The position numbers were made by a program, and so were the translations under genes. DNA of 64,000 bases from an uncultured Duganella sp. (GTDB lineage: Bacteria; Pseudomonadota; Gammaproteobacteria; Burkholderiales; Burkholderiaceae_D): NCBI GenBank assembly GCA_963515135.1, contig CAUPXZ010000015.1, forward strand, positions 36,181-100,180, read 5' to 3'. This document shows, one piece after another, positions 17,964 through 60,970 of the stretch (its first letter is position 1; every line of letters starts with the position of its first letter). The notes beneath the pieces were generated by a model, which was given only the letters and a program-made list of their open reading frames with translations, had not been told where the DNA came from and did not search any database.

Positions 17964-18150
17964 TTACTGGGTTGCTTAAGTAAGCCATCTTATCGCATGC
18001 GGCGGATAGCGTGTCGGCACATCTTGCAAAGCCGTGTTACTGTGGTGCGTAAGGACCGGAAAACACCATTAAAAGTGCGTGATTACTTCGATATTTCCTT
18101 TTGAAATCATGCTCTTACAAAAGGGTATTAACGATATTACGACATACCTT

Positions 18151-18179
18151 TTGACTTCCTGCACCAATAGCGCAATAAT
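18151..18179 (+). promoter_or_regulatory. Putative sigma70-type promoter for prkA
   Basis: TTGACT-N17-AATAAT, about 210 nt upstream of the ATG. Confidence 0.5.
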
Positions 18180-18392
18180 CAATTTCATAGACGTAAGAAG
18201 CGTTACGACCAACACATAAAAGCCGCATCCGGCCCATAAAGCCAGCTCAAGGACACGGGCAATCCGTTCCAACAAAAGAAGCTGACCAGAAGAAAAATAA
18301 GATCGAAAGGGATTAGACGAATCAGAGCCAGGGCAGGCGAACTGCCGGTGACTCGTGACATGCAGGTTTCCATCATTAAAGGACATTCAAAC

Positions 18393-20315
18393 ATGACCAT
18401 TTTTGACAACTACGCCGCACGATACGAACGGACCAAAGAAGAAGAGATGTCCCTCAAGGAATATCTCGAACTTTGCAAGAAAGACCGGCTTACCTATGCC
18501 AGCGCCGCCGAGCGCATGCTGGCGGCGATCGGCGAACCGACCCTGATCGACACGCGTAACGACACGCGGCTGTCGCGTATTTTCGCCAACAAGGTAATCA
18601 AGATCTATCCGGCCTTCCGCGAGTTCTACGGCACCGAGGAAGTGATCGAGCAAGTGGTGTCCTACTTCCGCCACGCGGCGCAGGGGCTGGAGGAGCGCAA
18701 GCAAATCCTCTACCTGCTGGGGCCGGTGGGCGGCGGCAAGTCGTCGATCGCCGAAAAGCTGAAGTCGCTGATGGAGCATGTGCCCTTTTATTGCCTGAAG
18801 GGGTCGCCGGTCAACGAGTCGCCGCTGGGCCTGTTCAACGAGGATGAGGACGGCACCATCCTGGAAGAAGACTACGGCATCCCGCGCCGCTACCTGCGCA
18901 ATATTCCGTCGCCGTGGGCGGTCAAGCGCCTGCACGAGTTCAACGGCGACATCAACCAGTTCCGCGTGGTCAAGCGCTATCCGTCGGTGCTGAAGCAGAT
19001 CGGCATTTCCAAGACCGAACCGGGCGACGAGAACAACCAGGACATTTCCTCGCTGGTCGGCAAGGTCGACATCCGCAAGCTGGAGGATTATTCGCAGGAC
19101 GACCCGGACGCCTACAGCTACTCCGGCGGCCTGTGCCTGGCCAACCAGGGCCTGATGGAATTCGTCGAGATGTTCAAGGCACCGATCAAGGTGCTGCACC
19201 CGCTGCTGACCGCCACCCAGGAGGGCAACTACAAGGGCACCGAAGGCTTCGGCGCGATTCCGTTCGACGGCGTGGTGCTGGCGCACTCCAACGAATCCGA
19301 ATGGAAGACCTTCAAGAACAACCGCAACAACGAGGCCTTCCTCGACCGTATCTATATTGTCAAAGTGCCGTACTGCCTGCGCGTCACCGACGAGATCAAG
19401 ATTTACGACAAGCTGCTGTTCAATTCCTCGCTGTCGGCGGCGCCCTGCGCGCCCGGCACCTTGCGCATGATGGCACAGTTCGCCATCCTGTCGCGGCTGA
19501 AGGATCCTGAAAATTCCAGCGTGTTCAGCAAGATGCTGGTCTACGATGGCGAAAACCTGAAGGATACCGATCCGAAAGCCAAGTCGATCCACGAATACGT
19601 CGATTACGCCGGTGTGGACGAGGGCATGAACGGCCTGTCGACCCGCTTTGCGTTCAAAATCCTGTCCAAGGTGTTCAACTTCGACAATACTGAAGTGGCA
19701 GCCAATCCGGTGCATCTGCTGTACGTGCTGGAGCAGCAGGTCGAGCGCGAGCAGTTCCCGCCGGAACTGGAACAGAAATACTTCTCGTACATCAAGGAGC
19801 ACCTGGCGCAGCGCTATGTCGAGTTCATCGGCAAGGAGATACAGACCGCCTACCTGGAATCGTATTCCGAGTACGGCCAGAACATCTTCGACCGCTATGT
19901 GACGTTTGCCGATTTCTGGATCCAGGACCAGGAATACCGCGATCCGGACACCGGCGAAAGTTTCGACCGCGAGTCGCTGAACAACGAGCTGGAGAAAATC
20001 GAGAAGCCGGCCGGCATTTCGAATCCGAAGGACTTCCGCAACGAGATCGTCAACTTCGGGCTGCGCGCGCGCGCCAATAACGGCGGCAAGAATCCGGCGT
20101 GGACCAGCTATGAAAAATTCCGCACCGTGATCGAGAAGAAGATGTTCTCCAATACGGAAGAGCTGCTGCCGGTGATTTCGTTCAACGCCAAGGCCAGCGC
20201 GGAGGACGCCAACAAGCACGCCGACTTTGTCGCGCGCATGGTGGAGAAAGGCTACACGGCCAAGCAGGTACGCTTGCTGTGCGAATGGTATCTGCGCGTG
20301 AGGAAGTCGTCCTAA
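18393..20315 (+). CDS. prkA: PrkA/YeaG family AAA+ Ser protein kinase
   Basis: Walker A GPVGGGKS, KTEPGDENNQDIS, EFVEMFK and EAFLDR. AAGGA RBS before the ATG at 18393. Confidence 0.95.
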   Translation: MTIFDNYAARYERTKEEEMSLKEYLELCKKDRLTYASAAERMLAAIGEPTLIDTRNDTRLSRIFANKVIKIYPAFREFYGTEEVIEQVVSYFRHAAQGLEERKQILYLLGPVGGGKSSIAEKLKSLMEHVPFYCLKGSPVNESPLGLFNEDEDGTILEEDYGIPRRYLRNIPSPWAVKRLHEFNGDINQFRVVKRYPSVLKQIGISKTEPGDENNQDISSLVGKVDIRKLEDYSQDDPDAYSYSGGLCLANQGLMEFVEMFKAPIKVLHPLLTATQEGNYKGTEGFGAIPFDGVVLAHSNESEWKTFKNNRNNEAFLDRIYIVKVPYCLRVTDEIKIYDKLLFNSSLSAAPCAPGTLRMMAQFAILSRLKDPENSSVFSKMLVYDGENLKDTDPKAKSIHEYVDYAGVDEGMNGLSTRFAFKILSKVFNFDNTEVAANPVHLLYVLEQQVEREQFPPELEQKYFSYIKEHLAQRYVEFIGKEIQTAYLESYSEYGQNIFDRYVTFADFWIQDQEYRDPDTGESFDRESLNNELEKIEKPAGISNPKDFRNEIVNFGLRARANNGGKNPAWTSYEKFRTVIEKKMFSNTEELLPVISFNAKASAEDANKHADFVARMVEKGYTAKQVRLLCEWYLRVRKSS

Positions 20316-20381
20316 GCAGTATCCGCGCGCCACTTGTGCACGAGTGGCGCGCCGCCGACCAATAGCAGCAGGAGGCATCTT

Positions 20382-21650
20382 TTGACTTACCTCATCGACC
20401 GACGTTTGCAGGGCAAGAACAAGTCCGCAGTCAATCGCGAACGCTTCTTGCGACGTTACAAATCGCAGATCAAGGACGCGGTGGGCCGCGCCATCAAGGG
20501 CCGTTCCATCACCGACGTCGAGAACGGCGAAAAAGTTTCCATCCCGGTCAAGGATGTGAGCGAGCCCTCGTTCGGCCACGCCCATGGCGGCGTATGGGAA
20601 GTGGTCAACCCCGGCAACCAGGAATACCAGAAAGGCGACCAGATCAACCGCCCCAAAGGCGGCGCCGGTTCGGGACGCGGCAAGGCCGGCAATAGCGACC
20701 AGATGACCGAAGACGACTTCATCTTCGAACTGTCGCGCGAAGAATTCATGAACTACTTCTTCGAAGACCTGGAACTGCCGCACATGGTCAAGACCCAGCT
20801 GACCGCCACCACCGATTTCAAGAACCAGCGCGCCGGCTACAATATGTCCGGCACGCCATCGAACATCCATGTGCTGCGCTCGCTGCGCGGCGCGCTGGGC
20901 CGGCGCATCGCGGTCGGCGGGCCATCGCGCAAGCGGCTGGCGGAAGCCGAGCGCGAACTGGAACAACTGCTGCTGGATGGCGTGCCGCTGCAGGACCAGC
21001 GCGTGGTCGAGCTGAAAAAACTGATCCACCACCTGCACACGCGCATCCTGGCAATCCCCTACATCGACCCGTTCGACCTGCGCTACACCAACCGCATCAA
21101 GGTGCCGAAGCCGATGACGCAGGCGGTGATGTTCTGCATCATGGACGTCTCCGGCTCGATGGACGAGACCCGCAAGGACACCGCCAAGCGCTTCTTCATC
21201 CTGCTCTACCTGTTCCTCAAGCGCGTGTACGACAAGATCGACGTGGTGTTCATCCGCCACCACACGGCGGCGGCCGAGGTGGACGAGGAAGAATTCTTCC
21301 ACTCGCGCGAATCGGGCGGCACGGTGGTGTCGTCGGCGCTGCATCTGCTGGACAAGATCATCGACGAGCGCTACGGCGCCGGCAGCTATAACTCCTACGT
21401 GGCGCAGGCCTCCGACGGCGACAACTGGGACAACGACTCGGTGCTGTGCCGCCAGTTGCTGACCAACACCATCATGCCCAAGGTGCAGTATTACACCTAT
21501 GTCGAGATCACCGACGGCCCGCCGCAAAACCTGTGGGAGCAGTATTCGCAGGTGCCGGACCATCACCCGCACTTTGCCATGCAGAAGATTGTGACGCCGG
21601 CCGACATCTACCCGGTATTCCGTGAACTGTTCAAGAAGCAGCCGAAATAA
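20382..21650 (+). CDS. yeaH: YeaH/YhbH (DUF444) vWA-domain protein
   Basis: IDRRLQGKNKSAVNRERFL, MDVSGSM, SGGT and QASDGDNW. GGAGG RBS before the TTG at 20382. Confidence 0.93.
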   Translation: MTYLIDRRLQGKNKSAVNRERFLRRYKSQIKDAVGRAIKGRSITDVENGEKVSIPVKDVSEPSFGHAHGGVWEVVNPGNQEYQKGDQINRPKGGAGSGRGKAGNSDQMTEDDFIFELSREEFMNYFFEDLELPHMVKTQLTATTDFKNQRAGYNMSGTPSNIHVLRSLRGALGRRIAVGGPSRKRLAEAERELEQLLLDGVPLQDQRVVELKKLIHHLHTRILAIPYIDPFDLRYTNRIKVPKPMTQAVMFCIMDVSGSMDETRKDTAKRFFILLYLFLKRVYDKIDVVFIRHHTAAAEVDEEEFFHSRESGGTVVSSALHLLDKIIDERYGAGSYNSYVAQASDGDNWDNDSVLCRQLLTNTIMPKVQYYTYVEITDGPPQNLWEQYSQVPDHHPHFAMQKIVTPADIYPVFRELFKKQPK

Positions 21651-21652
21651 TC

Positions 21653-23194
21653 ATGAACGACATGACCACGCCCAAGCCGAAACATCCGAACGCCCTGCCC
21701 GAACAGTCCGAATGGACCTTCGAACTGATCGAGCAGATCCATCAGGAAATCCGCCGCGTGGCCGCAGGCTTCGGGCTGGATACCTATCCGAACCAGCTGG
21801 AAATCATCACCGCCGAACAGATGATGGATGCCTACACCTCGGTCGGCATGCCGGTGTCGTATAACCACTGGTCGTTCGGCAAGCATTTCCTCAGCACCGA
21901 GAAAGGCTACAAGCGCGGACAGATGGGCCTGGCGTACGAGATCGTCATCAATTCCGATCCGTGCATCGCCTACCTGATGGAGGAAAACAGCCTGACCATG
22001 CAGGCGCTGGTCATCGCCCACGCTGCCTACGGGCACAACTCCTTTTTCAAGGGCAACTACCTGTTCCGCACCTGGACCGACGCCGAGGCGATCGTCGACT
22101 ACATGGTGTTCGCCAAGAACTACATCGCCGAGTGCGAGCAGCGGCATGGCATCGACGCGGTGGAGCTGCTGCTCGATTCCTGCCATGCGATCCAGAACTA
22201 CGGCGTCGACCGCTACAAGCGGCCGGCCAAGCTGTCGCTGATGGAGGAGCGCGCGCGGCAAAAAGAACGCGAAGCCTATGTGCAGTCGCAGATCAACGAC
22301 CTGTGGCGCACCTTGCCGCGCCGCGAGGAAGAAGAGACCGCCAAGGCGGCCAAGCGCTTCCCGGCCGAGCCGGAGGAAAACCTGCTGTACTTCATCGAGA
22401 AATATGCGCCGCTGCTGGAGCCGTGGCAGCGCGAGATGGTGCGGATAGTACGCAAGATCTCTCAGTATTTCTACCCACAGCGCCAGACCCAGGTGATGAA
22501 CGAGGGCTGGGCCACTTTCTGGCATTACACCATCCTCAACCAGTTGTACGACGAGGGCGTGATCGGCGACGGCTTCATGATGGAGTTCCTGAAGAGCCAT
22601 ACCAATGTGGTCTACCAGCCGCCGGTCAACAGCCCCTACTACAGCGGCATCAATCCCTACGCGCTCGGCTTCGCGATGATGACCGATATTCGCCGCATCT
22701 GCGAGCATCCTACCGACGAAGACCGCGAATGGTTCCCTGACATCGCCGGCAGCGACTGGCGCAAGACGCTGGACTTCGCCATGCGCAACTTCAAGGACGA
22801 GAGCTTTATCGCGCAATACCTGTCGCCCAAGCTGATACGCGAGTTTCACTTCTTCGCCGTGCTGGACGACGATAACAACGAGAAGCTCAACGTCTCGGCG
22901 ATCCACGACGACAGCGGCTACCGATACGTGCGCCAGCAGCTGGCGGAACAATATAATCTGGGCAACCGTGAGCCCAACATCCAGGTCTGGTCGGTCAATA
23001 CCCAGGACGACCGGGCGCTGACCCTGCGCCATAGCCAGTTCCAGCGCCGCCCGCTGAACCAGCAGGCCGGTGAAGTGCTGAAGCATGTTGCGCGCTTATG
23101 GGGCTTCGACGTCCACCTGGAAACAGTGGGGCCGAGAGGCGAAGTCGTCAGTTCTCTCGAAGTCCGACGGGAAAAACGCGGCCGCAATTCCTGA
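21653..23194 (+). CDS. ycgB: SpoVR/YcgB family protein
   Basis: HWSFGK, AYEIVIN, HAAYGHNSFFK, MNEGWATFWH and NPYALG. Confidence 0.94.
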   Translation: MNDMTTPKPKHPNALPEQSEWTFELIEQIHQEIRRVAAGFGLDTYPNQLEIITAEQMMDAYTSVGMPVSYNHWSFGKHFLSTEKGYKRGQMGLAYEIVINSDPCIAYLMEENSLTMQALVIAHAAYGHNSFFKGNYLFRTWTDAEAIVDYMVFAKNYIAECEQRHGIDAVELLLDSCHAIQNYGVDRYKRPAKLSLMEERARQKEREAYVQSQINDLWRTLPRREEEETAKAAKRFPAEPEENLLYFIEKYAPLLEPWQREMVRIVRKISQYFYPQRQTQVMNEGWATFWHYTILNQLYDEGVIGDGFMMEFLKSHTNVVYQPPVNSPYYSGINPYALGFAMMTDIRRICEHPTDEDREWFPDIAGSDWRKTLDFAMRNFKDESFIAQYLSPKLIREFHFFAVLDDDNNEKLNVSAIHDDSGYRYVRQQLAEQYNLGNREPNIQVWSVNTQDDRALTLRHSQFQRRPLNQQAGEVLKHVARLWGFDVHLETVGPRGEVVSSLEVRREKRGRNS

Positions 23195-23257
23195 CCAACT
23201 AATATATAAGGCTTTTTCTGGACCGTGCGCTGCGGGCACGGCTCTTGCAAGAGTCCG

Positions 23258-23297
23258 AACCGGGGTCGGCGAAGGCGCGCTGATCCCGGTTTTTTTT
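23258..23297 (+). terminator. Intrinsic terminator after spoVR
   Basis: aaccggggtcggcg...cgctgatcccgg followed by T8. Confidence 0.82.
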
Positions 23298-23711
23298 ACC
23301 GCAGGCACGGCACGGGCAGGAAGTCAATATGTTTCTGAAGCTACTTGTATAGTAGTGCCCGCAAGAATTTCATAGTAGTAACATTTACGGCCAAATTATC
23401 AATTGCGTGTAGTAAAGCTACCTACATAAAATTCCGTTTTTGGCCTTAAGGGAAAACTAAGTAACGTCATGGTGCGCCAGCGCCCAAAAATGCGCCGGAG
23501 AGTCTTGCTCGTTGAGCCAGAACGGTGCAAAGTGAGCGCTACCATATAGGAAAACCCTATGAAATTTAACCGGTTTTAGGGATGAAAAATCTATGTAAAA
23601 TCAAGAATTCGTATGTATAATTCGCCGACGTCCCGGATGCGGCTGTTGTTTTGTGTCGCCATTTTGGGGTTTAAGTAGCACCAAAGAGAGTTGGTATTGG
23701 AGAAAGCAGGC

Positions 23712-24374
23712 ATGAATTTCACGCACAACGAGAAAAGCACCGGGAAGAACTTTACAGGCATAACGATTGTCGTTTTGTTGCACTTGCTGGTCGCTTATGG
23801 GATCGTGACGGGCTTGGGAACACGTCTGGTGCATAAGATGATCGCACCAGTGGAGACCAAGATCATCGAGGAGGTCAAACCTCCTCCACCGAAAGAGCTC
23901 CCACCACCGCCACCACCGCCAGAGATGAAGGCACCACCACCGCCATTCATCCCGCCAGTTGAGGTGAACGTGCAGCAGCCGCCACCGCCGAACAACACGA
24001 TCGCTAATGCGACCAACGTGAAGCCGGCAACCACCGAGATCCAGAAGGCACCGCCAGCTCCACCGGCAGCGCCTCCAGGCCCTCCGAAAACCGGTGTGCG
24101 TACTGCAGCAGTGGTTGACTTCAGCACTTGCGCCAAACCGGAATGGCCGAAGTCGTCGCTGCGTAACGAGGAAACCGGCACTGTGCAATTGTCGTTCCTG
24201 ATTTCCGCTGACGGTCGCGTTACCGAAAGCAAGGTAGTGAAATCGAGTGGCTTCAGGGACCTCGATAAAGCTGCGGTCGCTGGTATCGGTAAATGCCGCT
24301 TCAAACCGGCAACCGTTGATGGCACCCCGCAAGAAGGCTGGCAGCAGATGCAATACGTCTGGACGCTGGAGTAA
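23712..24374 (+). CDS. tonB: Energy transducer TonB
   Basis: N-terminal TM helix with His, poly-Pro linker, and C-terminal SSGFRDLDKAA..RFKPA. Confidence 0.9.
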   Translation: MNFTHNEKSTGKNFTGITIVVLLHLLVAYGIVTGLGTRLVHKMIAPVETKIIEEVKPPPPKELPPPPPPPEMKAPPPPFIPPVEVNVQQPPPPNNTIANATNVKPATTEIQKAPPAPPAAPPGPPKTGVRTAAVVDFSTCAKPEWPKSSLRNEETGTVQLSFLISADGRVTESKVVKSSGFRDLDKAAVAGIGKCRFKPATVDGTPQEGWQQMQYVWTLE

Positions 24375-24458
24375 AACCGAGACAATCCATCGTCTCACTT
24401 AGTAATTTTCGTTGTCATTACGCCAGCGATCTGATTATTTTATCAATTTGGAGGAAGC

Positions 24459-25373
24459 ATGTTTAAGAATACCCGTTTGTCCGCTGTACTGGCCGCTGTG
24501 CTGTTCTCGGTGACCGCAGCAACCGCCCTGGTGAGCGCTCCTGCCTTTGCGCAAGAGCAAGCCTCGGCACCTGCTGCTGCTCCAGCAGCTGATGCAGCAG
24601 CGCCAGCACCAGCAGCGGATGCGGCCGCAGCACCAGCAGCTGACGCAGCTGCTCCAGCACCAGCCGCCGGTGGCCACGGTGCCGAAGAAGTGGAAAACCC
24701 ATACGGCTTCAAAGCAGTTTGGGATGCAGGTTTCGTATCGCGCGCTACCCTGATCATTCTGTCGCTGATGTCGATGGGTTCGTGGTACATCATCATCACC
24801 AAACTGATCGACCAGACCAAGATCTTCAAACAGTCGAAAGAAACTTCGGCCAAGTTCTGGAAAGCTTCGTCGATCGCTGCTGGTTCGGCTACCCTGACCG
24901 AAGGCTCGCCATTCCGCTTCATCGCTGAAACCGGCACCAAGGCTACCCAGCACCACGACGGCGCCCTGCTGGAACAAATCGACCTGTCGACCTGGGTTAC
25001 CATGTCGATCCAGCGCGCTGTGGACAAAGTTCAATCGCGTCTGCAAGATGGCCTGTCGTTCCTGGCAACCGTTGGTTCGACCTCGCCGTTCATCGGTCTG
25101 TTCGGTACCGTTTGGGGTATTTACAATGCGCTGATCGCCATCGGCATGTCGGGTAACGCATCGATCGACAAAGTGGCAGGTCCAGTGGGTGAAGCGCTGA
25201 TCATGACCGCTTTCGGTCTGTTCGTGGCAGTTCCAGCCGTTCTGGGTTACAACTGGCTGGTACGTCGTAACAAGTCGGCAATGGAAGACGTACGTGCTTT
25301 CTCGGCTGACGTTCACTCGGTGCTGATCTCGGGCGCAATGTCGACCGCTACCGGCTCCAAAAAAGTAGGCTAA
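24459..25373 (+). CDS. exbB: MotA/TolQ/ExbB proton channel with signal peptide and Ala/Pro-rich extension
   Basis: LATVGSTSPFIGLFGTVWGI and GEALIMTAFGLFVAVPA. GGAGG RBS. Confidence 0.92.
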   Translation: MFKNTRLSAVLAAVLFSVTAATALVSAPAFAQEQASAPAAAPAADAAAPAPAADAAAAPAADAAAPAPAAGGHGAEEVENPYGFKAVWDAGFVSRATLIILSLMSMGSWYIIITKLIDQTKIFKQSKETSAKFWKASSIAAGSATLTEGSPFRFIAETGTKATQHHDGALLEQIDLSTWVTMSIQRAVDKVQSRLQDGLSFLATVGSTSPFIGLFGTVWGIYNALIAIGMSGNASIDKVAGPVGEALIMTAFGLFVAVPAVLGYNWLVRRNKSAMEDVRAFSADVHSVLISGAMSTATGSKKVG

Positions 25374-25379
25374 TTAACC

Positions 25380-25808
25380 ATGTCCATGTCCGTAGGCTCC
25401 GATAGCGGAGACGAAGATCAAGTCATGTCAGAAATCAACACGACGCCCCTGGTGGACATCATGTTGGTTCTGCTGATTATCTTCCTGATCACGAGCCCGG
25501 TTGTGCTGAAGCTGATTAAAATTCAGCTGCCAGAAGAAACCAACCAGGTTATTCAGACCAAACCGGAAGACGTTAACATCGTTGTGAGCAAGGATGGCGA
25601 CATCTACTGGAATCAGAAGAAAATGCGCGACGCCAATGAGCTGTTCGATTTTCTGAAGGTGGAAGCAGTGAAGTTGCCTCAGCCGGAAGTACACGTACGT
25701 GGTGACCAAGAAACCAAGTACGAATCGATCGGCAAGGTTATTTACACTACCCAGCGTGCTGGTATTCAGAAGGTCGGTTTCATCACCGAACCGCCTGATA
25801 AGGGTTAA
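25380..25808 (+). CDS. exbD: ExbD/TolR
   Basis: EINTTPLVDIMLVLLIIF. Confidence 0.92.
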   Translation: MSMSVGSDSGDEDQVMSEINTTPLVDIMLVLLIIFLITSPVVLKLIKIQLPEETNQVIQTKPEDVNIVVSKDGDIYWNQKKMRDANELFDFLKVEAVKLPQPEVHVRGDQETKYESIGKVIYTTQRAGIQKVGFITEPPDKG

Positions 25809-25867
25809 TACCTGATAGCGCATCGCAGGCCTGTCATGCAGGCCTGCCCTTCTAAAAAGGAAACATC

Positions 25868-26296
25868 ATGAGTATGAATGTCGGCTCCCCATCCGCAGGC
25901 GCGGATCCGGAACCAATGATGGAAATGAATATGACGCCCCTCATCGACGTGATGCTGGTGCTGATTATCATGATGATCATTACGATTCCTAAAGCCAACC
26001 ACTCGGTCAACCTGAACATGCCGGTCGGCACCCCGCCGCCGCCAACCAAGGAACCAGTGGTCGTGACGATTGACGTCGACTTCGACGGTACGATTCTGTG
26101 GGATAACGTGGTTGTACCTGACCGCGGCACCCTGGAAGCGAAACTGACCGATGTCGCCGCGCAAGCGGATCAGCCGGAAGTGCATCTGCGTCCGAACAAG
26201 CTGGTCTCGTACAAAGTCGTCGCAGGCGTGATGGCTTCGGCCCAGCGTCTGGGCGTGACCAAGATTGGTCTGGTCGGTAACGAACAGTTCCAGTAA
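25868..26296 (+). CDS. exbD: Second ExbD/TolR
   Basis: EMNMTPLIDVMLVLIIMM. Confidence 0.9.
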   Translation: MSMNVGSPSAGADPEPMMEMNMTPLIDVMLVLIIMMIITIPKANHSVNLNMPVGTPPPPTKEPVVVTIDVDFDGTILWDNVVVPDRGTLEAKLTDVAAQADQPEVHLRPNKLVSYKVVAGVMASAQRLGVTKIGLVGNEQFQ

Positions 26297-26367
26297 TAAG
26301 TCCCATGTACAATAATAGGCAGGACCATTCCTGCCTATTTGCTTTTTTGAAGAAAGAAAACTCACCC

Positions 26368-27591
26368 ATGACCAAGTTTCGTCTCGCTCATCTCGGCCTG
26401 GTAATGGCCGCGATTGGTTTTACTGCAGCAGCCCCCATCGCAGGTTTCTCGTCGGTCGCCTACGCAGCAGAAACGGTGCGCGCAGAAATCGGCAAACCAT
26501 TGCAAGAAGCACAGAAACTGGCCGCGGCCGGCAAGAATAAAGAAGCGCTTGCCAAACTGAAAGAAACCGACTCCGTCGGCGGCAAATCCGCCAACGAAAC
26601 CTATCTGATCGAGCGCACCCGCGCTTCGGCGGCCGCTGCCGCCGGCGATAACGACGCAGCCGCCAAGGCCTTCGAATCGGTGATCAATTCCGGCAAGCTG
26701 TCGGCTGCCGAACAACCAAAATTCACCCAAGCCCTGGCCGGCATCTACTACCGCGCCAAGGACTATCCTAAGGCCATCACCTGGATTCAGCGCGCGCTGA
26801 AAGACAATCCGAACGACGGCCAGATGCGCGAACTGCTGATCCAGACCTACTACATCAGCGGCAAATACGCGGAAGCGGCCAAGGAACTGCAATCGAACAA
26901 GAACGCCTCCGAGCAGTCGCTGCAGATGCTGGCCAATATCCAGCTGAAGCAGAACGACAAGGCCGGCTACGTACAGACGCTGGAAAAGCTGGCCGGTTCG
27001 TATCCGAAATCGAGCTACTGGGCCGACCTGCTGAACCGCGTCGCCGGCAAGCCGGGCTTCTCGTCGAGCCTGGGCCTGGACGTGCTGCGTCTGCGCCTGG
27101 CCAACGGCCTGCTGACCAAGCCAGCCGAGTACATGGAAATGGCCCAGCTGTCGCTGCAAGCCGGCAATCCAGCTGAAGCGATCAAGATCATCGACCAGGG
27201 CTACAAAAAAGGCGCGCTGGGCACCGGCACCGACGCCGCCCGTCACCAGCGTCTGAAAGACCTGGCCGCCAAGACCCAGACCGAGTTCGACGCCAAAGCC
27301 GCCACCGTGGAAGCCGAAGCGGTCAAAGCCAAGGATGCCGACGCACTGGCCAACCTGGGCTACGGCCTGGTATCGGCTGGCAAAGCCGACAAAGGTTTGG
27401 CGCTGATGGACCAGGCAGTCAAGCTGGGCACCGGCCGCAATCCGGAAGCGATCAAGCTGCACTACGGCATCGCCCAAAGCGTCGCCGGCAAGAAAGCTCC
27501 TGCGCTGGCCACGCTGAAAACCGTCAAAGGCACCGACGGCACCGCCGATCTGGCCCGCTACTGGACGCTGAACATCAACCACCCGATGTAA
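26368..27591 (+). CDS. Exported all-helical tetratricopeptide-repeat protein
   Basis: Signal peptide ending in AYA, with TPR-like helices such as LAGIYYRAKDYPKAITWIQRAL. Confidence 0.8.
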   Translation: MTKFRLAHLGLVMAAIGFTAAAPIAGFSSVAYAAETVRAEIGKPLQEAQKLAAAGKNKEALAKLKETDSVGGKSANETYLIERTRASAAAAAGDNDAAAKAFESVINSGKLSAAEQPKFTQALAGIYYRAKDYPKAITWIQRALKDNPNDGQMRELLIQTYYISGKYAEAAKELQSNKNASEQSLQMLANIQLKQNDKAGYVQTLEKLAGSYPKSSYWADLLNRVAGKPGFSSSLGLDVLRLRLANGLLTKPAEYMEMAQLSLQAGNPAEAIKIIDQGYKKGALGTGTDAARHQRLKDLAAKTQTEFDAKAATVEAEAVKAKDADALANLGYGLVSAGKADKGLALMDQAVKLGTGRNPEAIKLHYGIAQSVAGKKAPALATLKTVKGTDGTADLARYWTLNINHPM

Positions 27592-36783: not shown

Positions 36784-37656
36784 ATGAGCACCGCCAACCT
36801 GTTACGTCTTATCCTGCTCGCCGCCATCTGGGGCGGCTCCTTCCTGTTCATGCGCATTGCCGCGCCGGTGCTGGGCGCCGCAGTCCTGATCGAATACCGC
36901 GTGCTGTTCGCCGCCATCTTCCTGGCCGTGGTTGGCCTGTTCCTGAAAAAATCGCTGGACTGGAAACAGCACTGGAAGCACTACTTCATCCTCGGCCTGT
37001 TCAATTCCGCCCTGCCGTTTCTGATGTTCGCATTCGCCGCGCGCACGCTGTCGGCCTCGCTGCTGGCGGTGCTCAACGCCACCACGCCACTGTGGGGCAC
37101 CTTGATCGCCGCCGTCTGGTCGCGCAGCATGGTCAGCGGCAAAGTACTGCTCGGCCTTGCGCTGGGCACCTGCGGTGTCGCGCTGCTGGTCGGCTTCGAC
37201 CACGTCAGCTCCAAGCCGGGTGCCGGCCTCGCCATCGCCGCCGTGCTGTTCGCCTCCTTCAACTACGGCGTCGCCAGCAACTACGCCAAGCAGGCCAAGT
37301 CGGTCGAGCCGTTCGCCAACGCGCACGGCTCGATGTGGGCATCGGCGCTGATGGTGCTGCCGGTGGTGCCGTTTTTCCCGGCGCCGGGCGCGCATACCAT
37401 CGGCATCATGGGCGCGGTGATCGCGCTGGCGGTGCTGTGCAGCGGCGTGGCTTACCTGATCTACTTCCGCTTGATCCAGGACGTCGGCCCGTCGTCGGCG
37501 CTGACGGTGACTTTCCTTAGCCCGCTGTTCGGCATCCTGTGGGGCGTGCTATTCCTCAGCGAGACGGTCGGCTGGTACACCTTTGCCGGCGCCGCCATCG
37601 TCATTGCCGGCACAGTGCTGGTGACCGGTTTCCGTTTCAAGGCGCGCGCGGCATGA
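36784..37656 (+). CDS. DMT/EamA family transporter
   Basis: IWGGSFLFMR, about 10 TM helices, and TVTFLSPLFGILWG. Confidence 0.88.
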   Translation: MSTANLLRLILLAAIWGGSFLFMRIAAPVLGAAVLIEYRVLFAAIFLAVVGLFLKKSLDWKQHWKHYFILGLFNSALPFLMFAFAARTLSASLLAVLNATTPLWGTLIAAVWSRSMVSGKVLLGLALGTCGVALLVGFDHVSSKPGAGLAIAAVLFASFNYGVASNYAKQAKSVEPFANAHGSMWASALMVLPVVPFFPAPGAHTIGIMGAVIALAVLCSGVAYLIYFRLIQDVGPSSALTVTFLSPLFGILWGVLFLSETVGWYTFAGAAIVIAGTVLVTGFRFKARAA

Positions 37657-38567
37657 AACCCTACACACTGGAGCTGCCGCCAGACTACCGCCTGGACGAT
37701 GTGCTGGCTTTTCACCGACGCGACACCGAAAGCATCGCCGAAGAAGTCAGCGCCGAGCGACTGCGCAAAGGCGTGCTGCTGGAGGGCGTGCCAGTGCTGC
37801 TCGACATCGCGCTGCCGCCGTCCAGCCGCGCGGCGGCGGCGGCCGGCGCCATCGCCAGCATCACGGCGCATGCCGACGGTACGCTGAGCGCAGCGGGCCA
37901 GCAGCAAGCACGCGACGCGGTGCTGAATATCCTCGGCCTGCGCATCGATCCCGCAGCGTTCTATGCCTTCGTCAAAAAGGACCAACTGTTCGCCACGCTC
38001 GTGCGCAAGCAACCGGGTTTGCGCATCGTCCAATCGGCCACCGTATTTGAGGCGCTGACCTGGGCCATCATCGGCCAGCAAATCAACCTCTCGTTTGCGA
38101 TTGCACTGCGCCGCACCTTCATCCTGCAAGCCGGCCGCCAACATAGCAGCGGTCTATGGTGCTACCCGGACGCCAATACTGCCGCCGCGCTGTCAGTAGA
38201 CGACCTGACCACCCGCAAATTCTCCCGCGCCAAAGCCGACACCCTGCTGCGCCTCGCATCGCTGGTCGCCAGCGGCGAACTGCGACTGGATCTCGCGCCA
38301 GACAACAGCATCGAACAGATCTCCGCCGCGCTGCTGGCAGTCAAAGGCATCGGCCCCTGGACCGTTAACTACGGCCTGCTGCGCGGCTATGGTTACGCCG
38401 ACTGCTCGCTGCATGGCGACGTCGCCGTCCGGGCCGCGCTGCAAACGCTGCTCGGCGAAGAAACCAAGCCGGACATCAAGCGCACCGAAGAAATCCTGGC
38501 CCGCTACAGCCCTCACCGCACCATGGCCGCCGCCCACCTGTGGGCCAGCTTGCACCCGCGCGACTAA
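37653..38567 (+). CDS. alkA: AlkA-type DNA-3-methyladenine glycosylase (AlkA_N plus HhH-GPD, no Ada domain)
   Basis: FEALTWAIIGQQI, HhH motif LLAVKGIGPWT, GDVAV and YSPHRT..AHLW. ATGA overlap with the DMT gene. Confidence 0.85.
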   Translation: MKPYTLELPPDYRLDDVLAFHRRDTESIAEEVSAERLRKGVLLEGVPVLLDIALPPSSRAAAAAGAIASITAHADGTLSAAGQQQARDAVLNILGLRIDPAAFYAFVKKDQLFATLVRKQPGLRIVQSATVFEALTWAIIGQQINLSFAIALRRTFILQAGRQHSSGLWCYPDANTAAALSVDDLTTRKFSRAKADTLLRLASLVASGELRLDLAPDNSIEQISAALLAVKGIGPWTVNYGLLRGYGYADCSLHGDVAVRAALQTLLGEETKPDIKRTEEILARYSPHRTMAAAHLWASLHPRD

Positions 38568-38573
38568 TTCCGC

Positions 38574-38604
38574 TTGAGCCTCACGCTGCGTGAGGCTTTA
38601 CGCT
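38574..38604 (+). promoter_or_regulatory. MerR-type promoter/operator
   Basis: -35 TTGAGC (38574-79), 19-bp spacer, -10 TACGCT (38599-604). Perfect dyad agcctcacgc-t-gcgtgaggct (38577-97). Confidence 0.85.
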
Positions 38605-38630
38605 CTCCTTCAACTCAACAAGGAGAGAAC

Positions 38631-39461
38631 ATGCCTCATCCCGCCCCACCGAAGCCCAGCGCCTGGATAACAGCCACCGCACGCGCCGCGCATCAGCTGT
38701 ACGACCAACCCATCCTGCACGATCCGCTCGCCCTGCGCATCCTCGGACCCGAGCGCGAAGCGGCGTTGCGCGCAGACGTCCAGCGCCAGCAACATCCGCT
38801 GGCTGCGGCCCTGCGCGCCACCATGGCGGTCCGCGCCCGCCTTGCCGAAGACAGCTGGCACGAAGCGCAGCAACGCGGCGCGACGCAATACGTCATCCTT
38901 GGCGCGGGTCTCGACACCTATGCCTATCGCGCGCCGCTACCGCCCGGCGTGCACGTGTACGAGACCGACCTGCCGGCAATGCTGCAATGGAAGCGCGGCT
39001 GCCTGAGCGCCGCCGGCATCGGCGAACCGTCACGGCTGCGCTACGTCGCCACAGATTTTTCCGCCACGCCGTTGCTTGAAGACTTGCAGCAGGCCGGCTT
39101 CAACGCAGCACTGCCGGCGTGCTTTTCGTGGCTCGGCGTCAGTATGTACCTCAAGCCGGATGACGTCATGCGTACGCTGAGCGACATCGCCAACTGCGCG
39201 CCGGGCAGCAGCATCGTCTTCGACTACTGCGTGCACCGCCGGCACCTCAGCGAACAGGAATGCGCGGGGCTCGACTTCGTCGCCGCCTCGCTGTCCACGC
39301 AAGGCGAACCTCTGCACAGCACTTTCGAGCCGCAGCTGCTGGAACACATGTTGCGCCACCACGGCTTCCGCCACATCGAGCACTTCGGACCGGAGCAACT
39401 CGATGCGCTGTACGGCGCGAAGCTGAGCGGCATCTTCCGCCTGGTCCGCGCCACGGTATAA
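38631..39461 (+). CDS. SAM-dependent methyltransferase, LCM/TIGR00027-like
   Basis: ATARA, DPLA, VRAR, QYVILGAGLDT, YETDLP and WLGVSMYL. AAGGAG RBS. Confidence 0.87.
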   Translation: MPHPAPPKPSAWITATARAAHQLYDQPILHDPLALRILGPEREAALRADVQRQQHPLAAALRATMAVRARLAEDSWHEAQQRGATQYVILGAGLDTYAYRAPLPPGVHVYETDLPAMLQWKRGCLSAAGIGEPSRLRYVATDFSATPLLEDLQQAGFNAALPACFSWLGVSMYLKPDDVMRTLSDIANCAPGSSIVFDYCVHRRHLSEQECAGLDFVAASLSTQGEPLHSTFEPQLLEHMLRHHGFRHIEHFGPEQLDALYGAKLSGIFRLVRATV

Positions 39462-39471
39462 ACTGTCGGAC

Positions 39472-40512
39472 ATGGAGAAAACCGTACTGAAGATCGGCGA
39501 ACTGGCCGCGCGTTCCGGCCTCACCGTGCGCGCACTGCACCACTATGACGACATCGGCCTGCTGACGCCGTCGGCACGCGCAGATTCCGGCTATCGCCTG
39601 TACCACCGCGACGACGTCGCGCGCCTGCACAAGATCCAGGCGCTGCGCAAGTTCGGCATGTCGCTGGCGGACATCGCCACCTTCCTCGCCAGCCCGGACG
39701 CGCCGTTTGCCGATGTGGTCTCGCAGCAGATCGCCGCGCTGGACCAGCAGATCAAGCAAGCCTCCACGCTGCGCGAGCAACTCGGCCGCCTGCAACAGCA
39801 AATGAGCGGCGACGGCGATCCGGCGCTGGAGGACTGGCTCGGCGCGCTGGAACACATGAAGCTCTATGAAGCGTACTTCACGCCCGAAGAACTGCGCCGC
39901 CTGCCCTTCTGGCAGCAGGACGCGCGCCGCAACGCCAAATGGCGCGCGATGACGGAGGAATTGAAATCGCTGATGGCGCGCGGCGTGCCCACCGACAGCG
40001 AAGCAGCGACCGCGCTGGCGCAGCGCTGGATGGAAACGCTGGAACAGGACACCGGCGCCAATCTCGCATTCGCGATGCGCATGACCGCCATGCTGCAACA
40101 GCAGAAAGACGCCGGCGAGAACTCGCCGATCAGCGACAAGGTGCGGCAGTATAGCTATCTCGGCGAGGCCTTCATGGCGCGCAAGATGGCCATCTACGCC
40201 AAGTACCTGAGCGCAGACGAAATGCAGCAACTGCGCGCCAACAGCCGCAAGCCGGCGCCCGAAGCCACCGCGCTTTACCTCAAGCTGCAACGCCAGATGG
40301 ACGATGGCGTGCCGCCGGAAGATCCGTCATCGCAGGTACTGGCGCGCGAATGGCAGCAGATGATGCGCAAGCGCGTCGGCGACAGCCCCGGTCTGCAAGC
40401 CCGCATCGATCTCGCGCACGACAACGAGCCGGAACTGCTGCGCGGCACCTGGCTCAGCGAAGCCACGGTCGCTTACGTCCGCAAAGCCGTGGCTGCTTGC
40501 GGGCTGGTTTGA
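39472..40512 (+). CDS. MerR-family regulator with tandem TipAS-like drug-binding domains (AlbA-like)
   Basis: IGELAARSGLTVRALHHYDDIGLL..SGYRLY. The duplicated C-terminal unit is GVPTDSEAATALAQRW / GVPPEDPSSQVLAREW. Confidence 0.85.
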   Translation: MEKTVLKIGELAARSGLTVRALHHYDDIGLLTPSARADSGYRLYHRDDVARLHKIQALRKFGMSLADIATFLASPDAPFADVVSQQIAALDQQIKQASTLREQLGRLQQQMSGDGDPALEDWLGALEHMKLYEAYFTPEELRRLPFWQQDARRNAKWRAMTEELKSLMARGVPTDSEAATALAQRWMETLEQDTGANLAFAMRMTAMLQQQKDAGENSPISDKVRQYSYLGEAFMARKMAIYAKYLSADEMQQLRANSRKPAPEATALYLKLQRQMDDGVPPEDPSSQVLAREWQQMMRKRVGDSPGLQARIDLAHDNEPELLRGTWLSEATVAYVRKAVAACGLV

Positions 40513-40558: not shown

Positions 40559-41026
40559 ATGGACGATCATCTCAACAACCTCTACGAAACCGATGCCCTG
40601 ATCTGGACCGACACCCAGATCGCCCTGCTACGCGCCGGAAAATTCGATCAGCTGGATGTGGAGAACATCATTTCCGAGCTGGGGTATCAAGTGCGAAAAG
40701 ACAAAAACGAGGTGGCCAGCCGGCTGCGCGGCTTGATCGCGCACCTGCTGAAATACCAGTTTCAGCCACAGCGGCGCTCACGCAGTTGGGTCAGGACCAT
40801 CCTTAACCATCGCATCGGAATTTTGGGCATTTTCAGTCAGATGCCCAGTCTGCGGCCGCAAATTGAAGAATATGTCGCGCATAACTATCCCAAGGCAGCG
40901 CGCGACGCAGCACGGGAAACCAAACTCCCATCATCCCTGTTCCCCGCAGAAAACCCCTACACCGTCGATCAAATCCTCGACGAAGATTTTTTCCCGGGCG
41001 AAAACGAAAAAGCCGTTGAACCTTAA
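40559..41026 (+). CDS. DUF29 family protein
   Basis: LYETDALIW, LD..NII.EL, LIAHLLKYQFQP, SW..TI, PSL and FP..NPYTVDQILD.DFFP. Confidence 0.85.
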   Translation: MDDHLNNLYETDALIWTDTQIALLRAGKFDQLDVENIISELGYQVRKDKNEVASRLRGLIAHLLKYQFQPQRRSRSWVRTILNHRIGILGIFSQMPSLRPQIEEYVAHNYPKAARDAARETKLPSSLFPAENPYTVDQILDEDFFPGENEKAVEP

Positions 41027-41043
41027 CGGTATCAACGGCTTTT
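41007..41043. terminator. Bidirectional terminator between DUF29 and the tRNA
   Basis: aaaaagccgttga...tcaacggctttt. Confidence 0.8.
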
Positions 41044-41049: not shown

Positions 41050-41126
41050 TGGTTGCGGGGACAGGATTTGAACCTGTGACCTTCGGGTTATGAGCCCGAC
41101 GAGCTGCCAGACTGCTCCACCCCGCG
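41050..41126 (-). tRNA. tRNA-fMet (CAT), initiator
   Basis: cgcggggtggagcagtctggcagctcgtcgggctCATaacccgaaggtcacaggttcaaatcctgtccccgcaacca. C1:A72 mismatch, GGG/CCC anticodon stem and encoded CCA. Confidence 0.97.
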
Positions 41127-57999: not shown

Positions 58000-59051
58000 G
58001 GCGTGCTGGACACACCGCCGCCCACCAGGTTGGCCGGGCGCAGCGCTTCCAGCCATTTGCGCATGCGGCCGGCATCGGCGGTACGCGATTGCTTGCCCTT
58101 CGAATCGAGGAACACCATGATCACCGAGCGGCCTTCGATCACCGCCTGCATCAGCAGGCAGCGCCCGGCTTCATTGATGAAGCCGGTTTTCTGCAGGCCG
58201 ATTGCCCAGTCCGGGCTGGCCACCAGATGGTTGGTGGTGCCGAATTGCATCGGACGGCCATTGCTGGTTTCCACCATGGCTTTCGGATCGGTCGAGAACT
58301 GGCGCAGCACCGGCTGCTGATAGGCCGCCATCGCCAGCTTGGCCAGGTCGCGCGCGCTGGCCACATTCATTTTCGACAGACCGCTGGAATCAACGTAATG
58401 CGTGTCGCTCATGCCCAGTTCACGCGCCTTGGCGTTCATCGCTTCGACGAAGGCCGGCTTGCCGCCCGGGTAGTTGCGGCCCAGCGCCGAGGCGGCGCGG
58501 TTTTCCGAGCTCATCAGCGCGATGTGCAGCATATTGGCGCGCGTCATCTGCGTGCCGACTTTCAGGCGCGAGCTGCTGAATTTCGCGCGGTCCACGTCTT
58601 CGTCGGTCACGGTGAGGATTTCGTCCATGTCCTGCTTGGATTCCACTACGATCAGGCCGGTCATCATCTTGGTGATGGAGGCGATCGGCAAGGCGACGTT
58701 GGAATTCTTCTCGAACAAAACTTCCGAATTGGCCTGGTCCAGCACCAGCGCCACGTTGGAGGCCAGCGACAGCGGATCGTCGGTCTTGTTGAGGCCGGCG
58801 AGATCGCCCATGGTCGGCATGGCCGGGGCGGCCGCCAGCACGCGTTGGTACACCACTTTGCGCTTGCCGTTGACCTTGACCGCGCGCTTGACCACGCGAT
58901 CCTGGGCCACCGGCGCGGCCAGGCGCACCGTTTGGCGTTTTTTCTTCACCACCTGTTTTTTGGGCGCAGCGCCGCTGTCGGTTGCCGGCGCAGCAATGGC
59001 TGCGGACGCAAACATCAGCGAGATCAGCGCGCTTAATGCGAGTTTAATCAT
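57981..59051 (-). CDS. pbpG: D-alanyl-D-alanine endopeptidase (PBP7)
   Basis: SxxK (ASITK), SxN (SSEN) and KTG (LQKTGFINEAGRC). Confidence 0.88.
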   Translation of the reverse strand: MIKLALSALISLMFASAAIAAPATDSGAAPKKQVVKKKRQTVRLAAPVAQDRVVKRAVKVNGKRKVVYQRVLAAAPAMPTMGDLAGLNKTDDPLSLASNVALVLDQANSEVLFEKNSNVALPIASITKMMTGLIVVESKQDMDEILTVTDEDVDRAKFSSSRLKVGTQMTRANMLHIALMSSENRAASALGRNYPGGKPAFVEAMNAKARELGMSDTHYVDSSGLSKMNVASARDLAKLAMAAYQQPVLRQFSTDPKAMVETSNGRPMQFGTTNHLVASPDWAIGLQKTGFINEAGRCLLMQAVIEGRSVIMVFLDSKGKQSRTADAGRMRKWLEALRPANLVGGGVSSTPYSTGM

Positions 59052-59180
59052 TCGTATCCCCAAAAAAGAAATTCACCAAACCGGTTGCAGTGTAGCAAAT
59101 CACTGCGCGAGCGCAAGAAAATTTAACACTCGCGGCATCAATGGTTGTGTCCACGCAATATAGGAAAAGACAAGCTAGAT

Positions 59181-59876: not shown

Positions 59877-59886
59877 GCGTTCTCGC

Positions 59887-60798: not shown

Positions 60799-60970
60799 CG
60801 GACTGGCTTGTGAACTAAAAGGCAATTGGCGGCGGATTCCGCTGCCACCAGAGGTAGTCCCGAGTCTAACACGTCAGACAACCTCACACCGGCAGGCCGC
60901 TATTTTCCTTGCTCTGGCGGGGAAGTTGCGCTCGGGAATTAGCTAGCACAACTATGTAAGCATTCTTTGA

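What the first reader, a model, noticed from the sequence alone, without database searches (positions are those of the whole stretch)
38574..40512. Candidate sense-sequester-methylate antibiotic resistance operon: MerR promoter, LCM-type methyltransferase, AlbA-like regulator
Seen: a MerR-type promoter (TTGAGC-N19-TACGCT with a perfect agcctcacgc-t-gcgtgaggct dyad) lies directly upstream of the methyltransferase, and the regulator follows only 10 bp after it. Known: TipA and AlbA bind antibiotics and activate their own promoters. From recall, the Streptomyces tipA operator has the same CCTCACG..CGTGAGG core, and this protein's C-terminal region resembles the Klebsiella albicidin-binding AlbA. 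The LCM family includes carboxyl O-methyltransferases. Inference: the drug induces both a sponge protein and an enzyme that methylates it, possibly on a terminal carboxylate like those of albicidin/cystobactamid-type oligoarylamides. I do not know of a described AlbA-plus-methyltransferase pairing.
Basis: partly seen in the sequence, partly recalled or inferred. Interest (0 to 1): 0.8.

Follow-up and report, generated by a model that had tools for sequence, protein, structure and literature searches.

The report
AlbA drug-sensor operon with methylating enzyme
A drug-trapping regulator gene sits behind one predicted promoter with a methyl-transferring enzyme that likely disarms whatever the regulator captures; in relatives the two are fused into one protein or paired with an altered spare fatty-acid-synthesis gene, which suggests the untested trigger is an inhibitor of that pathway.

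Summary
A TipA/AlbA-type operator with 19-bp spacing precedes an LCM-family (OPCMT-like) methyltransferase (38631-39461) and, 10 bp later, a full-length AlbA homologue (39472-40512). The pairing is not chance. 117 of 120 listed long homologues of the enzyme are fused to an AlbA ligand-binding domain, 92 of them to a whole AlbA. AlbA-linked enzymes form one clade, and the window's gene looks like a fission product under purifying selection.

New here: in the window's genus the slot between operator and albA is variable. Of 105 loci, 53 are empty, 23 hold the intact enzyme alone, 4 a truncated enzyme, 22 a second, altered accD (acetyl-CoA carboxylase beta), 2 both, and 1 is unresolved. That accD differs at two positions that also differ in an andrimid producer's AdmT.

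Best reading: an inducible sense-trap-methylate defence against an acidic small molecule, most plausibly an ACC carboxyltransferase inhibitor. Albicidin is doubtful, because this copy keeps 0 of 3 key albicidin-binding residues. Binding, co-transcription, substrate and resistance are untested. Burkholderia-type fusions lack the extra accD. I found no description in the papers searched. Verdict: new variant of a known kind.

The parts
38574..38604 (+). Predicted sigma-70 promoter of MerR type: -35 TTGAGC, 19-bp spacer, -10 TACGCT
   Evidence: Sequence. Same register as K. oxytoca palbA and the tipA/mta/skgA probes. An equivalent site lies upstream in 104 of 105 genus albA loci.
38577..38597 (.). 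Operator dyad (10-1-10 perfect inverted repeat), predicted AlbA binding site
   Evidence: Unique in the genome. 6 of 8 bases per half-site match K. oxytoca CCTGACGT.
38620..38625 (+). Shine-Dalgarno-like AAGGAG before the methyltransferase ATG
38631..39461 (+). SAM-dependent methyltransferase, LCM/TIGR00027 family, OPCMT-like (276 aa); likely fission product of an AlbA-methyltransferase fusion
   Evidence: Model pLDDT 93 with Rv0731c/ML2640c as top folds. Residue mapping, tree, dN/dS.
39472..40512 (+). Full-length AlbA-family MerR regulator (346 aa): HTH about aa 1-110, coiled coil, tandem TipAS ligand-binding domain
39856..40512 (+). Possible short in-frame AlbAS-like sponge isoform from Met129 (inferred, not shown)
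   Evidence: Met129 is invariant in 114 of 114 aligned regulators and lies two residues before the K. oxytoca AlbAS start.
37653..38567 (+). Context: AlkA-like DNA glycosylase ending 6 bp before the -35; not under the operator
   Evidence: Also upstream of many empty-slot loci.
40559..41026 (+). Context: DUF29 gene 46 bp after albA; membership of the operon unknown
   Evidence: Similar ORFs follow albA in 5 of 10 cargo loci inspected.

Best explanation
The locus is a predicted self-induced detoxification operon: an AlbA-family regulator likely binds the dyad, likely traps an acidic small-molecule antibiotic in its tandem TipAS tunnel, and would then raise transcription of itself and of a SAM-dependent enzyme that likely O-methylates the compound's anionic oxygen and disarms it. 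Shown by sequence: the promoter geometry, both protein families, the retained carboxylate-clamp and SAM residues, the conserved linkage, the natural fusions, and the altered accD in sister loci. Inferred: DNA binding, induction, co-transcription, a shared ligand for sensor and enzyme, and resistance. History (inferred): the enzyme came from a one-chain HTH-TipAS-TipAS-methyltransferase protein, lost its AlbA part stepwise and came to lie upstream of a resident albA. In the window's clade it stood beside a second accD, and descendants kept one or the other. The ligand class I commit to is an inhibitor of acetyl-CoA carboxylase carboxyltransferase, at about 0.35-0.4 given the mechanism. It could be an andrimid/moiramide-type acyl-succinimide whose anionic enolate is the warhead, or a carboxylic acid that inhibits directly or as its CoA ester.
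For: Operator identity and uniqueness. DNA-contact residues R17/H20/H21/Y38 of AlbA correspond to R20/H23/H24/Y41 here. Fusions: 92 HTH+LBD+MT and 25 LBD+MT among 120 listed long homologues; uninterrupted single ORFs in 5 named-genome loci; a fusion-to-fission series at one locus in genus g7. All 77 AlbA-linked enzymes fall on one side of an SH-100 branch and 70 of 71 unlinked ones on the other. 26 of 28 close enzyme matches in the genus lie between operator and albA. Enzyme omega 0.13-0.22 against the 12 nearest loci. Nearest solved relatives ML2640c and Rv0731c are proven small-molecule carboxyl methyltransferases; their clamp T20/Y194 maps to S10/Y173. Precedent for defensive carboxyl methylation by a TcmP-like enzyme: Spm on pyochelin. 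For the ACC class: 24 of 24 accD2-signature matches in the genus and 10 of 11 in metagenomes lie at an AlbA operator; accD2 is a second copy in 5 of 5 genomes checked; omega about 0.11; its start overlaps the enzyme's stop in a two-gene locus; it is altered at E. coli positions 203 and 230, as is the accD of a Vibrio andrimid cluster; the moiramide warhead binds as an anionic enolate.
Against: Nothing functional was measured. The window's genome has no accD2. Five genomes with fused or adjacent AlbA-enzyme pairs outside the family each gave a single accD match, so the ACC link is local and may be a separate recruit to a multi-drug sensor. T203/A230 also occurs in 32 other AccD proteins of unknown status. 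S. aureus has Thr at 203 although andrimid and moiramide B are active against it. 53 of 105 genus loci have an empty slot, 4 carry truncated enzymes and 2 enzymes have a decayed operator and no adjacent albA, so the cargo is often dispensable. The window's own regulator lost W133 and the carboxylate-anchoring R181, which most relatives keep. OPCMT substrates tested in print are carboxylates; an alcohol mimic was not accepted and no enol appears in the passages read. E189 of ML2640c is Leu here and in all 148 linked or unlinked rows counted.
Confidence: 0.66

Rival explanations
1. One reading: the operon traps albicidin/cystobactamid-type oligoarylamides and esterifies their terminal aromatic carboxylate.
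For: AlbA homology over the whole ligand-binding domain; F16, N24, W27, W56, L60, W162 and W195 kept. The albicidin carboxylate end sits in the C-terminal subdomain, the part that stays fused to the enzyme longest. OPCMTs accept rigid aromatic acids. R181 is kept in 15 of 19 enzyme-bearing loci.
Against: 0 of 3 of N75/R181/Q205 kept in the window's copy; N75 kept in only 4 of 19 enzyme loci and 0 of 21 accD2 loci. A gyrase poison does not explain a spare accD under the same operator.
Confidence: 0.13
2. General acid-detoxification regulon: the sensor is promiscuous, the enzyme esterifies assorted plant or microbial carboxylic acids, and accD2 is an independent recruit that supports fatty-acid synthesis under that stress.
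For: OPCMTs and AlbA/TipA proteins are promiscuous. Fusions occur without accD2. The C-terminal ligand subdomain changes fast, omega up to 0.8-0.95. Mta is named for activating multidrug transporters. This rival shares most steps with the best explanation and differs in ligand breadth.
Against: Enzyme-only and accD2-only loci are interleaved in one 42-row regulator clade with only 2 loci holding both, as expected if either gene covers the same threat. accD2 changes cluster around the oxyanion-hole and CoA-channel segment.
Confidence: 0.25
3. The enzyme is a circuit element rather than a resistance enzyme: it methylates the bound inducer to reset the sensor, or methylates a protein carboxyl group as LCMT1 does.
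For: Fusion to a transcription factor fits feedback control. LCMT1, PPM1 and TYW4 rank next in fold similarity (Z 23-24.5).
Against: The best fold and the only sequence matches in the PDB are the small-molecule enzymes. The enzyme persists after separation from the regulator. Replacement by accD2 fits protection better than signalling.
Confidence: 0.08
4. The enzyme is a decaying passenger that landed behind the albA promoter and has no current link to the regulator's ligand.
For: 4 truncated copies in the genus, 2 of them in the window's own 5-member subclade. The regulator's pocket is eroded in that subclade.
Against: Intact ORF with catalytic residues and omega 0.13-0.22. Ancient fusion clade.
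Confidence: 0.05

Closest known systems
AlbA (AlbAL/AlbAS) of Klebsiella oxytoca
   Same: MerR HTH plus tandem TipAS domain, 19-bp-spacer promoter with the same dyad register, conserved DNA-contact residues, probable internal start.
   Different: Described as activating its own gene and protecting by sequestration; 'methyltransferase' and 'operon' occur 0 times in the main text of the two 2026 preprints. Here an enzyme is the first gene, and the albicidin triad is not kept.
TipA (S. lividans), Mta (B. subtilis), SkgA (Caulobacter)
   Same: Operator core identical to the tipA probe; TipAS domain; Mta controls further resistance genes (transporters).
   Different: Single TipAS domain; no drug-modifying enzyme or target copy in the passages read.
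OPCMT-like carboxyl methyltransferases (ML2640c, Rv0731c, MnMT4; PMC10193983)
   Same: Top structural match (Z 26.4, rmsd 3.1 over 269 residues), N-terminal helical domain, SAM residues and hydroxyl clamp.
   Different: About 23-25% identity; T20 is Ser, E189 is Leu; not reported as drug-induced or fused to a regulator.
Spm, staphylococcal pyochelin methyltransferase (PMC10592502)
   Same: TcmP-like enzyme that disarms a competitor's metabolite by carboxyl methylation.
   Different: Described as Fur/iron-controlled and in an operon with fhuD1; no sequence comparison was made here.
AdmT, andrimid self-resistance AccD paralogue
   Same: Second accD copy; positions 203 and 230 differ from housekeeping AccD in both the Vibrio adm-cluster gene and accD2.
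   Different: Separate origin and different residues (F/R against S/A). accD2 lies under an AlbA operator, in genomes with no close match to the adm aminomutase (32-34% hits only in 5 of 5 genomes), and is absent from the window's own genome.

Membership tests
AlbA (tandem-TipAS MerR regulator) | N-terminal MerR HTH plus two TipAS repeats, about 346-348 aa | tested here: met
AlbA (tandem-TipAS MerR regulator) | Dyad overlapping the -35 in a 19-bp-spacer promoter upstream of its own gene | tested here: met
   It lies 898 bp upstream, with one gene between. The SELEX motif ACNCTNACG is matched at 6 of its 7 specified bases (G for C at the second base).
AlbA (tandem-TipAS MerR regulator) | DNA-contact residues R17, H20, H21, Y38 | tested here: met
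   R20, H23, H24, Y41; correspondence taken from spacing, as no full-length K. oxytoca sequence was aligned
AlbA (tandem-TipAS MerR regulator) | Short in-frame isoform AlbAS | tested here: inconclusive
   Met129 invariant in 114 of 114; translation not testable
Albicidin-binding AlbA in the strict sense | N75, R181, Q205 albicidin-recognition residues | tested here: not met
   T205, D313, R337
Albicidin-binding AlbA in the strict sense | Binds albicidin and is activated by it | not testable with these tools
   Needs binding and reporter assays
LCM / TIGR00027 methyltransferase | HMM score above curated cut-offs | tested here: met
OPCMT-like carboxyl methyltransferase | N-terminal helical domain plus Rossmann domain, about 300 aa | tested here: met
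OPCMT-like carboxyl methyltransferase | Clamp T20/Y194 and SAM residues R28, R90, D135, D164, E189 | tested here: inconclusive
   Y173, R18, R68, D113 and D142 kept; T20 is S10 (hydroxyl kept); E189 is L168
OPCMT-like carboxyl methyltransferase | Forms methyl esters of small-molecule acids | not testable with these tools
   Needs enzyme assay
AdmT-like resistant AccD (relatives' accD2, not in the window) | Second accD copy beside a housekeeping copy | tested here: met
   5 of 5 genomes; 1 more
AdmT-like resistant AccD (relatives' accD2, not in the window) | Lies in an andrimid biosynthetic cluster | tested here: not met
   Flanks are alkA, operator and albA; no close aminomutase match
AdmT-like resistant AccD (relatives' accD2, not in the window) | Active carboxyltransferase with raised inhibitor IC50 | not testable with these tools
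   Indirect only: G204/G205 kept, omega about 0.11, and a sister-type allele is the only accD found in a 100%-complete genome (G880)

The most novel reading that the evidence does not exclude
AlbA-type proteins are the hub of a three-tier inducible defence against acetyl-CoA carboxylase inhibitors in non-producers: one sensor traps the drug, a methyltransferase born as its C-terminal fusion caps the drug's anionic warhead (possibly the first enzyme to inactivate andrimid-class antibiotics), and an interchangeable drug-insensitive AccD replaces the target. The widespread 630-aa fusion would be a one-protein sense-trap-destroy machine.
Probability: 0.27. Interest if true: 0.85.

Novelty: new variant of a known kind. 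Interest (0 to 1): 0.66.

Why it matters
AlbA is studied as a sequestration-only resistance factor against drug leads (albicidin, cystobactamids, PBDs), and the natural ligands of its many homologues are open (PMC6078987 says so for AlbB). This locus shows the same switch wired to a predicted drug-modifying enzyme and, in sister species, to a replacement target. The cargo gives a concrete, cheap test of what these sensors detect. It also names a candidate inactivation route for ACC inhibitors, a class listed among new-mode-of-action candidates. The promoter is a ready biosensor, and the fusion family offers uncharacterised small-molecule methyltransferases with a built-in binding domain.

Tried and rejected
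Complex prediction of the ligand-binding domain with the enzyme gave no answer (score 0.00); it is not used for or against binding. Order-wide operator scan of 401 genomes: 35 with a match, and apart from albA-linked sites the 30 loci read looked like chance, with no new cargo. Genus g14: 1 of 36 genomes had the enzyme. Genus g23: 2 of 110 had the accD2 signature, one with an operator and one without. Andrimid self-resistance as the reason for accD2 was rejected. A link to the albicidin cluster gene albVI (recalled as TcmP-like) could not be checked; the hits in PMC7966384 that were shown concerned AlbVIII. PMC3853940 and PMC12809767 passages added nothing. Liu 2008 (AdmT) and Silvers 2016 (moiramide structure) were not held, so contact residues were not read and M203L for Pantoea AdmT is recalled only. 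Earlier findings of the scan: nothing by sequence, words or relatives. The longer upstream TTG start at 38574 listed overlaps the promoter and was rejected in favour of ATG 38631, which has the SD and matches homologue starts. A Burkholderia-wide neighbourhood survey was not run.
Full report
1. OBSERVATION. The -35 is at 38574, the spacer is 19 bp, the -10 is at 38599-38604, and a perfect 10-1-10 dyad spans 38577-38597. The core is unique in the genome; only 2 of 50 perfect 10-1-10 repeats sit in such a promoter frame. The 276-aa ORF at 38631-39461 passes the PF04072 and TIGR00027 cut-offs. After 10 bp comes a 346-aa MerR protein with two TipAS stretches whose residues 129-341 match K. oxytoca AlbAS (E 8e-30). 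Each is single-copy in the genome by the queries used. The nearest named homologues are from Duganella, so I treat the host as Duganella-like.

2. THE OPERATOR IS AN AlbA/TipA OPERATOR. K. oxytoca palbA reads TTGAC-CCTGACGT-C-ACGTCAGG with a 19-bp spacer (bioRxiv 10.64898/2026.10.20.760489; abstract, passages and section 8 read). The window reads TTGAG-CCTCACGC-T-GCGTGAGG in the same register. The core equals the tipA probe in PMC7762955 (passages). The SELEX motif and its conservation are in bioRxiv 10.64898/2026.09.21.753095 (abstract, passages, sections 3 and 9). In a sample of 300 family genomes, 84 had an albA match. I read the best 29, and 28 have the operator 46-92 bp before the match; one of them, G081, is unpublished. 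So the default is operator-albA, and the window has a gene in between.

3. THE SLOT IS VARIABLE. Of 119 genus genomes, 105 have an albA match, and all 105 loci were read. 53 are empty; 19 hold the intact enzyme (own included); 4 hold the enzyme fused to a TipAS subdomain; 4 a truncated enzyme; 22 an accD paralogue (accD2); 2 enzyme plus accD2; 1 is unresolved (broken albA). From the other side, 26 of the 28 closest enzyme matches (53% identity or more) are in the slot. The other two sit at the same chromosomal position with a decayed operator and no adjacent albA. 35 weaker matches remain: one is a truncated slot copy; of 5 others inspected, 2 have an AlbA-like operator about 80 bp upstream without an adjacent albA and 3 do not. 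All 24 accD2-signature matches in the genus lie in the slot. Cargo promoters have a TA-T -10 in 51 of 51 loci, whereas 48 of 53 empty-slot promoters start the -10 with C. On a FastTree of 102 genus regulators (3 lacked a whole ORF) plus 12 fusion parts, cargo needs 2 changes, the enzyme 5 and accD2 3. Enzyme-only and accD2-only loci are interleaved in one 42-row clade (SH 100). I infer an ancestor with both genes and reciprocal loss; the tree is unrooted and kin are not independent. In a two-gene locus the enzyme's stop overlaps the accD2 start.

4. THE ENZYME COMES FROM A FUSION. A search for longer homologues found 128 and listed 120; 92 carry HTH, ligand domain and enzyme, 25 ligand domain and enzyme, and 3 other partners. 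Named ones include Burkholderia ubonensis, B. stagnalis, B. vietnamiensis, Cupriavidus, Janthinobacterium, Glaciimonas, Paludibacterium and Syntrophobacteraceae. 21 of 119 normal-length homologues also carry TipAS parts. The ESM Atlas holds a 60-member LCM+MerR+TipAS cluster, possibly the query's own. In a capped genome scan (best 80 of 586 confirmed), 2 loci were operator-enzyme-albA, 5 whole fusions (one with a partly deleted HTH, one without a pattern-matched operator), 1 ligand-domain fusion, 1 albA-operator-enzyme, and 71 had no AlbA link in the DNA held. In genus g7, 7 of 58 genomes have the enzyme: 3 whole fusions and 4 HTH-less forms, with an operator in 6 of 7; 3 of the 4 HTH-less genomes have a separate albA. 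A FastTree of 161 enzyme domains was built from 25 genus loci, 78 scan loci, 40 of 120 long and 18 of 119 near homologues. It puts all 77 AlbA-linked rows in an 89-row clade (SH 100) with 1 unlinked row, while 70 of 71 unlinked rows fall outside. The window's gene nests among TipAS-fused rows. The rows were chosen by likeness to the window's protein and no AU test was run. Fused AlbA parts form a clade apart from the genus regulators, so the enzyme was paired with a different albA than the one it was born with (inference).

5. WHAT THE ENZYME LIKELY DOES. The model (pLDDT 93) matches Rv0731c and ML2640c best (E 1.6e-18; Z 26.4), then LCMT1, TYW4 and PPM1. Both mycobacterial proteins methylate small-molecule carboxylates through a Thr20/Tyr194 clamp acting on an ionised substrate (PMC10193983; passages and section 6). 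Mapping gives S10, Y173, R18, R68, G91/G93, D113 and D142 kept and E189 replaced by Leu. Omega against 18 intact loci is 0.13-0.22 for the 12 nearest, 0.36 for two and 0.44-0.50 for the four farthest, where high GC probably compresses dS. A defensive precedent is Spm, a TcmP-like enzyme that disarms pyochelin (PMC10592502; passages).

6. WHICH LIGAND. Albicidin recognition by AlbAS rests on N75, R181 and Q205 (PMC6078987; passages). By the alignment these are T205, D313 and R337 here; W133 and Y169 are replaced too, while seven N-terminal or hydrophobic contacts are kept. R181 is kept in 15 of 19 enzyme loci, 21 of 21 accD2 loci and 49 of 52 empty loci, so an anion-anchoring Arg is usual and the window's small subclade is the odd one. 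accD2 is a second copy, forms one clade (SH-aLRT 99) with omega about 0.11, and lies at an AlbA operator in 10 of 11 metagenome matches, the eleventh contig being too short. In another genus it follows an operator with no adjacent albA. Relative to E. coli AccD it has M203S, A211C, G226A, A228T, P230A and changes at 234-240, with the glycines at 204/205 kept. The accD of the V. coralliilyticus andrimid cluster has M203F and P230R. AdmT confers andrimid resistance (PMC6269866, passages; PMC13151354, passages and section 10); the M203L change of Pantoea AdmT is recalled, as that paper was not held. The butuanimide-resistance position M241 of A. baylyi corresponds to E. coli 224 if A. baumannii numbering holds. 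The moiramide warhead binds as an anionic enolate, which a clamp for an ionised oxygen could methylate (inference). An acid activated to a CoA ester, as TOFA is, would fit equally. Against this reading: the window has no accD2; five outside genomes with the fusion or pair have one accD match each; T203/A230 occurs in 32 of 120 other AccD homologues of unknown status; S. aureus has Thr there; and half the genus has an empty slot.

7. MECHANISM AND ODDS. Inducible sense-trap-methylate defence: 0.66. Given that, an ACC carboxyltransferase inhibitor is my first choice (about 0.35-0.4), ahead of a broad set of acids and of oligoarylamides. The rivals overlap with it in their first steps and are scored separately. 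No step beyond sequence was shown.

8. NOVELTY. AlbA, TipA, OPCMTs, Spm and AdmT are each known. I found no description of an AlbA-methyltransferase operon or fusion, or of accD under an AlbA operator, in these searches: (8 papers listed; TipAS+methyltransferase+MerR, 3 papers, one opened), (1 review, listing only; listings only). The word methyltransferase is absent from the main text of both 2026 preprints. Subscription papers such as Sikandar 2018 (seen only as a reference) and preprint supplements were not seen and may bear on this. The fusion's domain architecture is visible in public annotations. Verdict: a new variant of a known kind, interest 0.66; up to 0.85 if the ACC-inhibitor reading holds.

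Noticed in passing
window 37653-38567 (+): An AlkA-like glycosylase ends 6 bp before the -35, with no terminator listed between. It is upstream of albA in many genus loci whatever the cargo, so read-through may add basal expression; a role against DNA-binding drugs is untested.
   Followed up: partly
window 40559-41026 (+), 41008-41043, 41050-41126 (-): A DUF29 gene follows albA by 46 bp, then a 12-bp-arm inverted repeat flanked by A/T runs (likely a two-way terminator) and a tRNA-Met on the other strand.
   Followed up: partly
L226:10991-12867 (Pseudoalteromonas donghaensis plasmid NZ_CP032092.1): A LysR gene divergent from an AdmT-like accD (Leu at 203, Arg at 230) on a mobilizable plasmid, with no andrimid cluster in the 12 kb either side; the LysR-accD pair is laid out as in the Vibrio adm cluster.
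   Followed up: partly
L286 (G880:C12:133098-133964): The only accD found in this 100%-complete genome is of the altered, accD2-sister type and has no operator, suggesting the variant replaced the housekeeping gene.
   Followed up: partly
L291, L292 (G325, G369), about 80 bp before the enzyme: Stand-alone, more distant methyltransferases with AlbA-like operators in genomes whose albA slot is empty: possible control in trans.
   Followed up: partly
L179:3822-4643 and L183 (Acidobacteria): An accD-like gene (47-49% identity) lies just upstream of an AlbA-unlinked LCM methyltransferase; it may be the housekeeping gene.
   Followed up: no
P0303, P0310; P0355, P0356: The same enzyme clade is also fused to a radical-SAM (RlmN-like) domain, and in Desulfovibrio to a MerR HTH with no TipAS hit on record.
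   Followed up: no
P0157-P0238 (32 of 120 AccD homologues): A set of AccD proteins (Solimicrobium, Sapientia and unnamed) carries T203 with A230 together; whether they are housekeeping or extra copies was not checked.
   Followed up: no
window 40213-40512 (regulator C-terminal subdomain): This subdomain changes much faster than the DNA-binding domain (omega 0.24-0.95 against 0.07-0.39), and the window's subclade lost W133 and R181 equivalents.
   Followed up: partly
window about 18000-27000 and 59000-63000: GC falls to 0.51-0.61 against about 0.63-0.66 elsewhere; possibly acquired DNA or RNA genes.
   Followed up: no
G000:C2:373007: The only other perfect dyad in a 19-bp-spacer promoter lies beside another MerR-type gene, probably a metal-responsive regulator.
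   Followed up: no
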